Numbered from the stretch's first letter, positions 2,353 through 4,137 are shown. The stretch is 7,538 bases of DNA from a virus (IMGVR_UViG_3300014520_000035), one strand, 5' to 3'. Program-made: numbers and translations. The notes: a model not told the origin generated them from the sequence alone.

Positions 2353-2676
2353 ATGGATGCTGGCGTTCTCGTTCTAGCAGTTCAACAATACCCAATCACA
2401 AAACAATTCACTGATAACGAACTTTGCACACTCGCCTGGTTATGGCGAGCAGGGAATGTGATGTTAATTACCTACCAGAACGTTACTCCTCTTCTTCAGG
2501 TTGCGGAGCATCGTGAAGCTGGTCGCTTCACTTCTATCGAGCAAGAATATCCCCAGATACTCAATAAGGCACAGGCAATCCTTGCCAGAGAAACGGCACA
2601 TGTAAAATTCCGGCCGTGGCAGGATGATAAGTGGAGTCGAGTTTTGCCGCATTTACGTTCGGATCGATTACAGTAG
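2353..2676 (+). CDS. Hypothetical protein (107 aa; alternative start ATG 2461 gives 71 aa)
   Basis: Open frame from the six-frame track with no family I recognise. The in-frame ATG at 2461 has a better Shine-Dalgarno (AGGGA, about 6 nt upstream) than the ATG at 2353. Occupies the position where K-12 carries ybcL. Confidence 0.45.
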   Translation: MDAGVLVLAVQQYPITKQFTDNELCTLAWLWRAGNVMLITYQNVTPLLQVAEHREAGRFTSIEQEYPQILNKAQAILARETAHVKFRPWQDDKWSRVLPHLRSDRLQ

Positions 2677-2699
2677 ATTCCAATTAACAATGAGAAACA

Positions 2700-3125
2700 C
2701 ATAGCCACCCCGTGGTATTGAAACCATATAATGTTGGATTTGAAAACAGATCTTTTTCCATGTATTAATAACTACATCCCCGCGAGTGATTCAAAAAGGA
2801 GGGCCCAATTTTGTCCGAGTTTTTGTATTCCCCCGCATGCCGCTGCGGAGCACTACATCTGAGTGTCTGACTAGGGGATAAAATTAGACTGGATAGTGAG
2901 AAGAAAGTGGCGTGCTAGGCTGTGCCGAGTGCTACCAGTACACCCTGGGGGTGTGCAGCTTTCGCCGAGACTGTAGTGGGTATCGGTTAATGCACGAAAA
3001 ACCGAGAGGTCAGACAACCAATTTGCCGTAGGATTGTTTCCGGTGCGATACCGGTGTACTAACTGAAAGCAATGCGAAAAAGCATAAACTCGGTCCTTCA
3101 GTCGCCCTACACACTATTTACTAAG
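2700..3125. ncRNA. Candidate structured non-coding RNA, or long structured leader of the downstream ORF; strand undetermined
   Basis: About 430 bp with stop codons dense in all six frames (no ORF in the track; longest I find is 43 codons, 2731-2862), yet noticeably more G+C-rich than the two AT-rich ORFs flanking it, with many short G/C-rich complementary segments. No tandem repeats and no tRNA or tmRNA signatures. Confidence 0.3.
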
Positions 3126-3137
3126 AAGGGCTAAAGC

Positions 3138-3494
3138 ATGGATACAATTATCACATGGATGGGAGATCGTCTGTTGGGGTGGATAACAAACAAATCCGAT
3201 CTGCGGCAGAGGGCAATCACTGGATTAACTCCTGCGATTTATTCAACAATTTTATATACTGAAAAATTAAAACGTGGTGAGCCTAATAACCCAAACGAAG
3301 AAGAAAAACTTTATAGGCTTTGGTATGAAGCGTCTTCCCAAGTCGTAGACTTTGATCGAGAGCTGGCTAAAAGATGTTTAGATAAATCAGAATATTGGCT
3401 TCATTCTGAATTATATAGCCCTGAGAAAGTTGGAGAGCTAAACATTTCTTTGGTTGGTATGAAGGCAACGCTTGAAGGAATAAAGCACAATTAA
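3138..3494 (+). CDS. Hypothetical protein (118 aa), low-GC accessory gene
   Basis: ORF with Shine-Dalgarno AAGGG 6-10 nt upstream of ATG 3138; strongly AT-rich codon usage unlike the downstream nin genes; no family recognised (charged, likely soluble). Confidence 0.55.
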   Translation: MDTIITWMGDRLLGWITNKSDLRQRAITGLTPAIYSTILYTEKLKRGEPNNPNEEEKLYRLWYEASSQVVDFDRELAKRCLDKSEYWLHSELYSPEKVGELNISLVGMKATLEGIKHN

Positions 3495-3681
3495 AACCTT
3501 TGATTTGCGATAATCAACTCGCCATAATCATGTCATCGGAGCCTGAACAACTCCGGTGACTTCTGCGCTAAACGGGGACGTTTATGCGCACACACAATCC
3601 AAACTCTCTTCTCCCTCCACAGATGCAGAAATGCACCTGCGATATATTGTATCCAGCGTTTGACCTCTGCGGAGGTGAAGC

Positions 3682-4137
3682 GTGAATCTCCCACAAGATG
3701 GCATCAAATTACATCGCGGTAACTTCACCGCTATCGGTCGGCAGATCCAGCCTTATCTGGAGGAGGGCAAATGCTTTCGCATGGTGCTTAAACCGTGGCG
3801 TGAGAAACGCAGTCTTTCCCAGAATGCACTCAGCCACATGTGGTACAGCGAAATCAGTGAATACCTCATCAGCAGGGGTAAAACGTTCGCTACTCCAGCT
3901 TGGGTAAAAGATGCTCTCAAACACACATATCTCGGTTATGAAACCAAAGACCTGGTTGATGTTGTAACCGGTGATATCACCACTATCCAGTCGTTACGCC
4001 ATACCTCCGATCTTGATACCGGAGAGATGTATGTCTTCCTGTGTAAGGTTGAAGCCTGGGCGGTGAATATTGGCTGCCACCTGACTATTCCGCAGAGCTG
4101 CGAGTTCCAGCTGCTCCGCGACAAGCAGGAGGCGTAA
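3682..4137 (+). CDS. ybcN: NinB/Orf-family protein YbcN (151 aa), GTG start
   Basis: Translation [39 protein letters not shown]... matches DLP12 YbcN as I recall it; GGAGG Shine-Dalgarno at 3671-3675 before GTG 3682. Confidence 0.9.

What the first reader, a model, noticed from the sequence alone, without database searches (positions are those of the whole stretch)
2700..3125. ~430-bp ORF-free block between the two cassette ORFs: candidate structured ncRNA
The block has stop codons scattered through all six frames, yet its base composition is visibly more balanced and G+C-rich than the AT-rich ORFs on either side. Degenerate pseudogenes and plain AT-rich spacers rarely look like this; structured RNAs do. 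It contains many short complementary G/C-rich segments, for example ccgag 2815-2819 with ctcgg 3089-3093, and cggtt 2983-2987 with aaccg 3000-3004. It runs straight into the Shine-Dalgarno of the 118-aa ORF, so if it is transcribed on the + strand it would be a long structured leader or an RNA partner of that protein.
Basis: seen in the sequence. Interest (0 to 1): 0.65.

Follow-up and report, generated by a model that had tools for sequence, protein, structure and literature searches.

The report
Large structured RNA gene in prophages
The "empty" block is a gene for a roughly 330-base, intricately folded non-coding RNA carried by lambda-like prophages of E. coli and its relatives; it matches no known RNA family and its function is unknown.

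Summary
The block is real and its core reading holds. Window 2776-3106 (+) is a conserved RNA unit of 329-345 nt. I found it in 159 of 5,426 complete E. coli genomes, in two isolated E. coli phages, a Klebsiella phage, about 75 IMG/VR contigs and gut metagenomes. It also occurs in Citrobacter, Enterobacter and Obesumbacterium prophages.

Forty distinct variants support a 16-helix fold that includes two inter-domain pseudoknots. 92.6% of cells are paired, against 33-44% when partners are slid. 32 pairs change on both sides, against 6-12. No three-base periodicity is seen, and stop codons interrupt the frames.

A sigma-70-type promoter is conserved in position and places the start at the first base of the closing helix. 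Most lineages have an intrinsic terminator 5-10 nt after the last helix. Neighbouring genes vary. In five lineages the RNA stands alone. Homologues of the neighbouring proteins also occur without it.

Rfam 15 gives no match even at E<=10, and RefSeq annotates nothing there.

Most likely it is an autonomous, trans-acting structured RNA ("RNA moron"). Its molecular function is not established.

The parts
2740..2769 (+). Putative sigma-70 promoter of the RNA. -35 TTGAAA at 2740-2745, 18-bp spacer, TG at 2761-2762, -10 ATTAAT at 2764-2769. The predicted start is A2776.
   Evidence: The -35 (TTGAAw or TTGTAT) and -10 (wTTAAT, TAAATT or TTATAT) keep their positions relative to the first base of helix P1 in 22 of 23 distinct upstream contexts, while the spacer sequence diverges. 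The generic scanner did not call it. It is inferred from conservation, not shown by transcript mapping.
2776..3106 (+). Conserved structured RNA (331 nt here, 329-345 nt in homologues).
   Evidence: 40 distinct variants (A5). No coding signal. No Rfam match at E<=10. RefSeq annotates nothing under it in 159 genomes.
2776..2879 (+). 5' domain closed by P1 (2776-2781 with 2874-2879). It contains hairpin P3/P3a (2792-2797/2820-2825 and 2801-2804/2813-2816) and hairpin P4 (2841-2849/2858-2865).
   Evidence: Per-helix counts. P1 is 96.7% paired, P3 96.3%, P3a 95.5% and P4 95.0%, with two covarying pairs in P4.
2826..2840 (+). Single-stranded linker UAUUCCCCCGCAUGC. It is part of a block invariant in all 40 variants (2810-2840) and is the candidate functional face.
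   Evidence: Invariant columns of A5. The block is kept even in the most divergent lineage (L160, L161, L166).
2851..2856 (+). Loop of P4 (CACUAC), which forms a 6-bp kissing interaction with the loop of P7 (2973-2978, GUAGUG).
   Evidence: Five fully complementary haplotypes: CACUAC/GUAGUG, CGCAAC/GUUGCG, CACCAC/GUGGUG, CAUCAC/GUGAUG and CGUAAC/GUUACG. Three covarying pairs, 99.2% of cells paired.
2866..2872 (+). 5' strand of pseudoknot PK2 (UCUGACU), pairing with 3008-3014 (GGUCAGA).
   Evidence: Three haplotypes: UCUGACU/GGUCAGA, UCUGAUC/GAUCAGA and UCCGGCU/GGCCGGA. Three covarying pairs, 99.6% paired.
2887..3103 (+). 3' domain closed by P5 (2887-2892 with 3098-3103). It contains the P6 three-way junction (2903-2908/2958-2963, with P6a 2912-2914/2930-2932 and P6b 2939-2945/2949-2955), the P7 hairpin (2964-2972/2979-2987), P8 (3001-3006/3089-3094), the P9 hairpin (3034-3044/3050-3059) and the P10 hairpin (3072-3075/3082-3085).
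   Evidence: Covarying pairs per helix: P6 3, P6a 2, P6b 5, P7 4, P8 3, P9 5. The P5 count is lowered by a one-column misalignment in 8 rows. P9 and P10 are replaced by other hairpins in the L160/L161/L166 lineage.
2973..2978 (+). Loop of P7 (GUAGUG), the partner of the P4 loop.
   Evidence: As for 2851-2856.
3008..3014 (+). 3' strand of pseudoknot PK2.
   Evidence: As for 2866-2872.
3138..3494 (+). Downstream 118-aa ORF (phrog_12412). It is co-transcribed with the RNA in this lineage because no terminator lies between them. It is a neighbour, not an obligate partner.
   Evidence: Predicted all-alpha four-helix bundle with no significant fold or family match. It is found behind the RNA in E. 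coli, Enterobacter and Obesumbacterium. It is truncated to 66 aa in a large E. coli sub-lineage while the RNA stays intact. A 51%-identical homologue occurs without the RNA.

Best explanation
Window 2776-3106 is an autonomous gene for a large, compactly folded non-coding RNA, an 'RNA moron' of lambdoid prophages.

Shown. The sequence family is conserved at nearly constant length. A two-domain fold of about 16 helices is tied together by a 6-bp loop-loop kiss and a 7-bp pseudoknot, and is maintained by compensatory substitutions. There is no coding signal.

Inferred from conserved anatomy. Transcription starts at A2776 from its own sigma-70 promoter and runs rightward, in the direction of the early-right operon. 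In most lineages it ends at an intrinsic terminator 5-10 nt after the last helix, which would give a discrete RNA of about 360 nt. In this window's lineage the terminator is missing, so the RNA would continue into the 118-aa ORF.

Inferred mechanism, least certain. The folded RNA acts in trans as a specific macromolecule-binding scaffold or decoy, or conceivably as a catalyst. It would use the invariant single-stranded face UAUUCCCCCGCAUGC (2826-2840) and neighbouring invariant junctions. It would be expressed from the repressed prophage as well as during lytic growth, and would serve phage-host or phage-phage conflict rather than regulating one particular neighbouring gene.
For: Conservation. 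The unit is 77.8% identical to a Klebsiella phage that has different flanking genes. It is in 159 of 5,426 E. coli genomes, in 75 IMG/VR contigs and in metagenomes. It also occurs in Citrobacter, Enterobacter and Obesumbacterium.

Structure. RNAalifold gives 11 compensatory pairs. My model on 30 sequences gives 96.0% paired against 33-44% slid, and 18 against 1-8 double-change pairs. On 40 sequences it gives 92.6% against 33-44%, 32 against 6-12 double-change pairs, a covariation score of 0.271 against at most 0.076, and 0 of 500 shuffles reach it. Both pseudoknots gained new compensatory haplotypes in lineages found after the model was drawn.

Strand. There are invariant G-U pairs. The helices are 92.6% paired on + against 82.5% on -. 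Promoter and terminator orientation agree.

Not coding. Variable sites by codon phase are 71/62/74 (p=0.57), and stops occur in the frames.

Autonomy. A terminator is present in 13 of 21 distinct downstream contexts, and its stem differs between lineages. No antiterminator-type competitor for the terminator was found. The RNA stands alone in front of ninB or DUF1367 in L054, L160, L161/L162, L164 and L166. There are five unrelated cargo genes elsewhere. Cargo homologues occur without the RNA.

Not known. Rfam 15 gives nothing at E<=1 on the window or at E<=10 on the block. ARAGORN finds nothing. Literature string and keyword searches find nothing.
Against: There are no transcript data, so the promoter, the start site and RNA stability are all inferred. 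Folding the single sequence is not exceptional (z = -1.26).

The homologues fall into only about nine lineages and are mosaics of one another, so cell counts overstate the number of independent events. The shuffle control is known to be optimistic for related sequences.

Two variants (L071 and L092) carry mismatches in P1. L071 also has mismatches in the kiss and in PK2, and may be decaying.

Helix P2 (GCG/CGC) fails in the divergent lineage.

In this window there is no terminator, so here the element could work simply as a 5' UTR.

Nothing identifies a binding partner or an activity. The trans-acting scaffold or decoy mechanism is a best guess from architecture.
Confidence: 0.6

Rival explanations
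1. Cis-acting leader. The fold is a long regulatory 5' UTR (riboswitch-, attenuator- or antiterminator-like). It would control transcription or translation of whatever lies downstream: the variable moron gene, or the ninB-to-Q operon that always follows.
For: In this window and in the L057, L062, L150 and L152 lineages the RNA runs without a terminator into the 118-aa ORF, across a conserved linker. In the other lineages the order promoter, RNA, terminator, ORF resembles a riboswitch layout. The element always sits just upstream of the nin/Q region, where lambda has tR2.
Against: The downstream genes are unrelated to each other or absent. The terminator stems differ between lineages while the RNA 3' end stays invariant, and no conserved segment can compete with the terminator arms, so there is no expression platform. 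330 nt with two pseudoknots is far larger than known leaders for such small genes. The fold starts exactly at the predicted start site and ends just before the terminator, as in stable RNAs.
Confidence: 0.2
2. RNA antitoxin or partner of the downstream small protein. This would be a type III toxin-antitoxin-like or abiF-like arrangement, in which the RNA neutralises or regulates a toxic abortive-infection effector encoded just downstream.
For: The order promoter, RNA, terminator, small ORF is the order in ToxIN-type loci (family knowledge). One cargo gene (L002, 176-183 aa) has an R-x4-H HEPN-like motif, and another (178 aa) has terminal transmembrane segments, so both are plausible toxins. 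The RNA plus 118-aa pair is kept across E. coli, Enterobacter and Obesumbacterium.
Against: There are no tandem repeats in the RNA. One conserved RNA is paired with five unrelated proteins, and with none in five lineages. Homologues of two cargo families occur without the RNA. The 118-aa gene decays to 66 aa while the RNA stays intact. No cargo protein matches PADLOC or Pfam toxin families, and the 118-aa model has no significant fold match.
Confidence: 0.08
3. RNA anti-CRISPR (Racr-like). The stacked P1 and P2 helices copy the stem of the enterobacterial type I-E CRISPR repeat, and the RNA would sequester Cas6e or Cascade subunits.
For: In most lineages the 5' strand UCCCCGCG (2777-2784), its partners CGC (2834-2836) and GGGG (2874-2877), and the following AUAAA (2878-2882) reproduce the 6-bp stem and flanks of the E. 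coli repeat GAGUUCCCCGCGCCAGCGGGGAUAAACCG (sequence seen; the repeat is quoted from my own knowledge of Brouns et al. 2008). Several lineages read GGGGAUGAACCA against GGGGAUAAACCG. Racrs typically sit immediately downstream of a promoter (PMC10651486).
Against: There is no contiguous repeat: 0 matches with up to 3 mismatches, and no CRISPR-DR family hit in Rfam. The 'hairpin' is interrupted by about 90 nt. The GCG/CGC helix cannot be tested by covariation in the main lineages. It is lost in the divergent lineage, which reads CCCCAGUAGG or CCCCUGUAGG. The handle-like bases vary. A repeat mimic does not explain 330 nt of conserved, pseudoknotted structure. The resemblance was noticed post hoc.
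Confidence: 0.05
4. Not a functional RNA. The block would be a decayed protein-coding remnant, or a DNA-level element such as a recombination boundary or replication signal, conserved only because of recent common descent.
For: DLP12-type prophages are defective, and the block is flanked by gene fragments (a truncated P22AR antirepressor at 2353-2676). The variants are mosaic, which shows frequent recombination here.
Against: Compensatory changes preserve 32 base pairs, including long-range ones about 120 and 140 nt apart. G-U pairs favour one transcribed strand. There is no codon periodicity and no conserved frame. Length stays constant at down to about 78% identity across genera. Flanking promoter and terminator signals are conserved. 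The element is present in isolated, viable phages.
Confidence: 0.03

Closest known systems
Orphan large structured phage or prophage RNAs (ROOL, GOLLD; also OLE, HEARO, raiA as 'large ncRNAs')
   Same: It is hundreds of nucleotides long and built from many helices with loop-loop and pseudoknot contacts. It is carried by temperate phages, was found by comparative analysis, and has unknown function. Kissing loops are the contacts that build the ROOL and GOLLD assemblies (abstract of bioRxiv 10.1101/2024.12.08.627333, listed).
   Different: It has no sequence or structure homology to them (no Rfam hit at E<=10). At 330 nt it is much smaller than the 580-800 nt of those RNAs. The hosts are Enterobacteriaceae rather than Firmicutes or environmental bacteria. 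Whether the kiss here is intra- or intermolecular is unknown.
Stable trans-acting bacterial RNAs with their own promoter and terminator (6S RNA, RNase P RNA, tmRNA, Y RNA)
   Same: It is a discrete transcription unit. The fold begins at the first transcribed base and ends at the terminator, and it is compact and pseudoknotted.
   Different: No family match was found. There is no tRNA-like domain, no P4-type core and no 6S-type open-promoter mimic. It is phage-borne and patchy in distribution, present in 3% of E. coli genomes.
RNA anti-CRISPRs (Racr; solitary repeat units of phages)
   Same: It is a promoter-proximal, phage-encoded small RNA. The first helix resembles the type I-E repeat stem and its flanks.
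   Different: There is no intact repeat. The resemblance is not conserved in all lineages. The RNA is several times larger and is structured throughout.
Type III toxin-antitoxin antitoxin RNAs (ToxI and relatives) and the abiF-motif RNA upstream of Abi genes
   Same: The order promoter, RNA, terminator, small phage-borne ORF is the same, and the location is a prophage.
   Different: There are no tandem repeats. The partner protein is neither conserved nor always present. There is no ToxN/AbiQ or Abi_2 match.
HK022 put RNAs and other cis-acting processive antiterminator RNAs (EAR)
   Same: It is a structured RNA transcribed just downstream of a phage promoter, upstream of terminators in the early-right, nin and Q region.
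   Different: put is about 65-70 nt with two stem-loops. This RNA is five times larger, unrelated in sequence, and in most lineages is followed almost immediately by an efficient-looking terminator that appears to define its 3' end.

Membership tests
Any Rfam 15 family (4,227 covariance models, including riboswitches, ribozymes, introns, CRISPR-DR, prophage sRNAs, ROOL, GOLLD and HEARO) | Covariance-model score at or near the family threshold | tested here: not met
   0 matches at E<=1 on the whole window and 0 at E<=10 on 2740-3140, both strands.
tRNA / tmRNA | Cloverleaf or tRNA-like domain with a tag reading frame | tested here: not met
   ARAGORN finds 0 genes in the window.
Type III toxin-antitoxin (ToxIN-like) | Antitoxin RNA made of tandem direct repeats | tested here: not met
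   Tandem Repeats Finder gives 0 rows at minimum score 30 on 2650-3200.
Type III toxin-antitoxin (ToxIN-like) | Transcription terminator between the RNA gene and the toxin gene | tested here: inconclusive
   A terminator is present in 13 of 21 downstream contexts. It is absent in this window and wherever the 118-aa, 95-aa or 177-aa genes follow.
Type III toxin-antitoxin (ToxIN-like) | Cognate endoribonuclease toxin that co-occurs and co-evolves with the RNA | tested here: not met
   There are five unrelated downstream proteins or none. Cargo homologues occur without the RNA. No Pfam or PADLOC toxin match.
RNA anti-CRISPR (Racr / solitary repeat unit) | A unit similar in sequence and hairpin to the host CRISPR repeat over its whole length | tested here: not met
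   The E. coli I-E repeat has 0 matches with up to 3 mismatches. Only a split stem plus flanks match, and that match is lost in L160, L161 and L166.
RNA anti-CRISPR (Racr / solitary repeat unit) | Binding to Cas6 or Cascade subunits and inhibition of interference | not testable with these tools
   This needs biochemistry or phage-challenge assays.
Riboswitch / attenuator leader | An expression platform: a conserved segment able to pair alternatively with the terminator or the SD | tested here: not met
   In most lineages no segment of 6 nt or more in the RNA can compete with either terminator arm. The terminator stems change while the RNA 3' end stays invariant.
Riboswitch / attenuator leader | Consistent functional class of regulated downstream genes | tested here: not met
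   The downstream genes are unrelated (118, 176-183, 95+162, 178 and 177 aa) or absent.
Self-splicing intron (group I / II) | Interrupts a host gene whose exons join into one reading frame; conserved catalytic core | tested here: not met
   Flanking genes differ between loci, and the unit has its own promoter and terminator. No Intron_gpI or gpII hit.
Protein-coding gene / micro-protein | A conserved open frame with codon-phase substitution bias | tested here: not met
   Variable sites by phase are 71/62/74, p=0.57, and stops occur in the frames. The 43-codon ORF starts in the promoter and is not conserved. The SD+UUG 19-codon mini-ORF (2811-2870) is cut to 12 codons in L005, frameshifted in L071 and 11 codons in L161, while its third positions are invariant.
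Large multimer-forming phage RNAs (ROOL / GOLLD kind) | Homo-oligomeric assembly through intermolecular kissing loops | not testable with these tools
   A covarying 6-bp loop-loop pairing exists, but covariation cannot tell intramolecular from intermolecular pairing.

The most novel reading that the evidence does not exclude
A previously unrecognised class of compact, double-pseudoknotted RNA that lambdoid phages of enteric bacteria carry as a stand-alone 'RNA moron'. It would act by itself in phage-host or phage-phage conflict. Possible modes are a high-affinity decoy or inhibitor for a host or rival-phage protein (for example an RNA-guided or RNA-targeting defence component), an RNA-only assembly, or a ribozyme. 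It would be an RNA counterpart of the protein morons and anti-defence genes found at the same hotspot.
Probability: 0.3. Interest if true: 0.85.

Novelty: categorically new. Interest (0 to 1): 0.72.

Why it matters
Large RNAs with complex tertiary folds are rare, and almost every one studied has turned out to do sophisticated biochemistry. Finding one that is still unannotated in E. coli lambdoid prophages, among the best-studied genetic elements, would be unexpected.

It is also immediately tractable. The element is present in sequenced E. coli strains and in isolated temperate phages (Turner, IdasGreatGrand). It is only 330 nt long. It comes with natural compensatory variants and natural 'with cargo' and 'without cargo' configurations.

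It sits at the replication-to-nin hotspot where prophages keep competition and defence genes. A function there would add an RNA-only player to phage-bacterium conflict.

For annotation, it explains a recurrent 'empty' 0.4-kb gap in about 3% of E. coli genomes, and it shows that the small 'hypothetical proteins' called inside it in phage records are spurious.

Tried and rejected
1. Rfam cmscan at permissive thresholds found nothing.

2. ARAGORN found nothing.

3. The single genome-contig scan, with a gapped two-motif pattern, returned only a chance hit in Methyloceanibacter (L073) that the profile search did not recover.

4. PLSDB plasmids gave no match.

5. Literature searches by sequence strings and by keywords (lambdoid, nin region, ncRNA, GC-IGR, ybcK, DLP12) found nothing relevant. 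One possibly relevant 2026 preprint on coevolutionary ncRNA mining could not be opened. The Pas sRNA preprint does not mention any of the locus terms I searched for.

6. Single-sequence folding gave a non-significant z-score on both strands.

7. A raw all-against-all column covariation list was too noisy because there are few lineages. I replaced it with a helix-based search.

8. Helix P2 (GCG/CGC), and with it the CRISPR-repeat mimic idea, failed in the divergent lineage.

9. A sarcin-ricin-loop-like hairpin (CGAGAGG) conflicts with the covarying P8 and PK2. I rejected it by inspection.

10. Resemblances to the tRNA-fMet acceptor strand, 5S rRNA loop C, a hammerhead core and a K-turn were recalled from memory. 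Each has the wrong topology or an incomplete motif, and I did not pursue them.

11. Protein-partner hypothesis. Pfam, PHROGs and PADLOC gave only 'unknown function' for all six cargo proteins. The AlphaFold model of the 118-aa protein is a generic four-helix bundle with no significant PDB match.

12. The search for related loci with the 118-aa protein returned only contigs already held or near-identical to them.

13. A shorter invariant motif found no further viral contigs.

Full report
CONTEXT. The window is a DLP12-type lambdoid prophage of E. coli. Its genes are emrE (73-459), the ybcK serine recombinase (715-2241) and a truncated P22-antirepressor C-terminal fragment (2353-2676). The block in question comes next, followed by a 118-aa hypothetical ORF (3138-3494). 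After that come ybcN/ninB (3682-4137), ninE, ybcO, rusA, ylcG, an antiterminator Q and the nmpC porin. The same arrangement occurs at 100% identity in RefSeq chromosomes and in two isolated temperate phages, Escherichia phages Turner and IdasGreatGrand.

THE OBSERVATION. The interval has no ORF above 48 codons. Its G+C peaks at 0.51-0.525, against 0.30-0.41 for the flanking AT-rich genes. By itself the sequence does not fold better than shuffles (z = -1.26 on +, -0.44 on -). The case therefore rests on comparison, not on visible complementarity.

A CONSERVED UNIT WITH CHANGING NEIGHBOURS.
- A sensitive BLAST against phage genomes found a Klebsiella phage 77.8% identical over window ~2750-3104, with unrelated genes on both sides and an intrinsic terminator right after the conserved part.
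- Motif scans of IMG/VR and one metagenome scan recovered more copies.
- Tracing homologues of the neighbouring proteins to their contigs added more.
- Together these gave 40 distinct full-length variants of 329-345 nt.
- The named hosts are E. coli, Klebsiella, Citrobacter braakii, Enterobacter bugandensis and Obesumbacterium proteus.
- In E. coli it is in 159 of 5,426 complete genomes, essentially single-copy, and RefSeq annotates nothing under it.
- It is absent from GTDB species representatives at the stringency of my one scan and from PLSDB plasmids.

IT IS RNA STRUCTURE, NOT CODING. Length is almost invariant while sequence diverges. Variable sites show no codon periodicity (71/62/74, p = 0.57), and stops occur in the frames, though one antisense frame is open in 7 of the 40 variants. 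The 43-codon ORF begins in the promoter and is not conserved.

An SD-like GGAGG followed by a UUG 19-codon mini-ORF (2811-2870) lies inside the RNA. Its C-terminal half is not conserved, it is truncated or frameshifted in several lineages, and its third codon positions are invariant. This points to nucleotide-level constraint.

RNAalifold found 81 pairs, 11 of them compensatory. A helix-based covariation search added two long-range pairings.

My model has two domains:
- The 5' domain is P1, P3/P3a and P4 (2776-2879).
- The 3' domain is P5, the P6 three-way junction, P7, P8, P9 and P10 (2887-3103).
- The domains are joined by a 6-bp kiss between the P4 and P7 loops (2851-2856 with 2973-2978) and by a 7-bp pseudoknot (2866-2872 with 3008-3014).

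On 30 sequences the model gives 96.0% paired cells against 33-44% when partners are slid, and 18 against 1-8 pairs with changes on both sides.

Lineages discovered afterwards (the Citrobacter type, and a very divergent type in L160, L161 and L166) were not used to draw the model. They nevertheless supplied new, perfectly compensated haplotypes for both pseudoknots, P6b and P8.

On all 40 sequences the model gives 92.6% against 33-44% paired. It gives 32 against 6-12 double-change pairs and a covariation score of 0.271 against at most 0.076. None of 500 shuffles reaches it. The kiss has five distinct fully complementary haplotypes.

Invariant G-U pairs, and 92.6% against 82.5% pairing for the + and - strands, fix the strand.

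Caveats. There are only about nine lineages and they are mosaic, so counts exceed the number of independent events. L071 carries mismatches. P2 is not supported.

A TRANSCRIPTION UNIT. Upstream, a -35 (TTGAAw or TTGTAT) and a -10 (wTTAAT and variants, often after TG) keep their distance to the first base of P1 while the spacer diverges. In the window these are 2740-2745 and 2764-2769, which places the start at A2776. An A-tract and an inverted repeat sit just upstream.

Downstream, 13 of 21 distinct contexts have a canonical terminator beginning 5-10 nt after the last helix, with different stem sequences in different lineages. The window's lineage, and the others followed by the 118-aa, 95-aa or 177-aa genes, lack it. 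All of this is inferred from sequence. There are no expression data.

RELATION TO NEIGHBOURS. The RNA is followed by one of five unrelated small genes:
- a 118-aa gene;
- a 176-183-aa gene with an R-x4-H motif;
- a 95-aa gene plus a 162-aa gene;
- a 178-aa gene with two terminal transmembrane segments;
- a 177-aa gene.

All are of unknown function. In L054, L160, L161/L162, L164 and L166 it is followed by nothing before ninB or DUF1367.

A 51% homologue of the 118-aa protein and 49-51% homologues of the 176-aa protein occur without the RNA. The 118-aa gene is cut to 66 aa in a large E. coli sub-lineage while the RNA stays intact.

The 118-aa protein models as a plain four-helix bundle with no informative structural match. 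No RNA segment can compete with the terminator arms, and the RNA has no tandem repeats.

The RNA is therefore an autonomous module sitting next to a cargo hotspot. It is not an obligate partner or leader of one protein. In this window it would still be co-transcribed with the 118-aa ORF.

WHAT IT IS LIKE. Nothing in Rfam 15 matches, even at E<=10, and nothing relevant turned up in the literature library. In architecture it resembles stable trans-acting RNAs and the orphan large phage RNAs (ROOL and GOLLD), but it is not homologous to them.

One lead was that P1 stacked on P2 reproduces the stem and flanks of the enterobacterial type I-E CRISPR repeat, and Racrs sit right after promoters. This is weakened because there is no intact repeat and the resemblance is lost in the divergent lineage. 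I keep it as a low-probability rival.

VERDICT. The element is a structured non-coding RNA family of lambdoid prophages that appears to be undescribed.

I am confident in the fold and in its autonomy (about 0.85). I am moderately confident that it works in trans as a folded RNA (about 0.6). I have no evidence for the specific activity. A cis-leader role (about 0.2) is the main rival, especially for this terminator-less lineage.

Noticed in passing
window 3499-3530 (also L161, L164, L166 just after the RNA terminator): A conserved palindrome (TTGATTTGCGATAATCAAC here, GTTGATTATTGATAATCAAC elsewhere) is followed by CCATAAT. The scanner calls a promoter-like site here (TTGATT-17-CATAAT). It precedes the ylcH/ninB region in many lineages and looks like an operator overlapping a promoter.
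   Followed up: partly
window ~3540-3680; L071 on both sides of the RNA plus 177-aa gene: The ylcH-like sequence upstream of ybcN is conserved across loci. In L071 it is duplicated on both sides of the [RNA + cargo] module. This looks like the footprint of insertion of the module by recombination.
   Followed up: partly
window 2721-2740; clearer in L054, L057, L062 upstream of the RNA promoter: An inverted repeat (AACCATA-N5-TATGGTT, degenerate in the window) abuts or overlaps the -35 of the RNA promoter and is preceded by an A-tract. It could be an operator or an UP element that controls RNA expression.
   Followed up: no
window 3138-3494; L005, L009, L011 and related loci: The 118-aa ORF (phrog_12412, predicted four-helix bundle) is truncated to 66 aa by a deletion of about 137 bp in a large E. 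coli sub-lineage. The upstream RNA differs there by only a few substitutions, most of which keep base pairing.
   Followed up: yes
L002 4416-4967 (Klebsiella phage Kp4856-1) and homologues P0022-P0036: The cargo protein of 176-183 aa carries an R-x4-H (RLRHNLLH) HEPN-like motif but has no Pfam or PADLOC match. It is a candidate small RNase-type competition or defence gene.
   Followed up: partly
L149 55-656; L157 2757-3558: Where homologues of the two cargo families occur without the RNA, each sits directly behind a DNA_pol3_theta (HOT)-like gene. The two genes overlap in L149 and lie about 55 nt apart in L157. The RNA gene and the theta-like gene therefore occupy the same slot in different phages.
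   Followed up: no
window 2353-2676: The ORF upstream of the block is only the C-terminal P22AR domain of an antirepressor. A full-length 202-aa version sits in the same place in L058. The left flank of the RNA is therefore a gene remnant in this prophage.
   Followed up: partly
L003 4055-4186 and 4236-4355 (phage Turner record): Two small 'hypothetical protein' CDS are annotated inside the RNA in the deposited phage genomes. They correspond to non-conserved frames and are probably spurious calls.
   Followed up: yes
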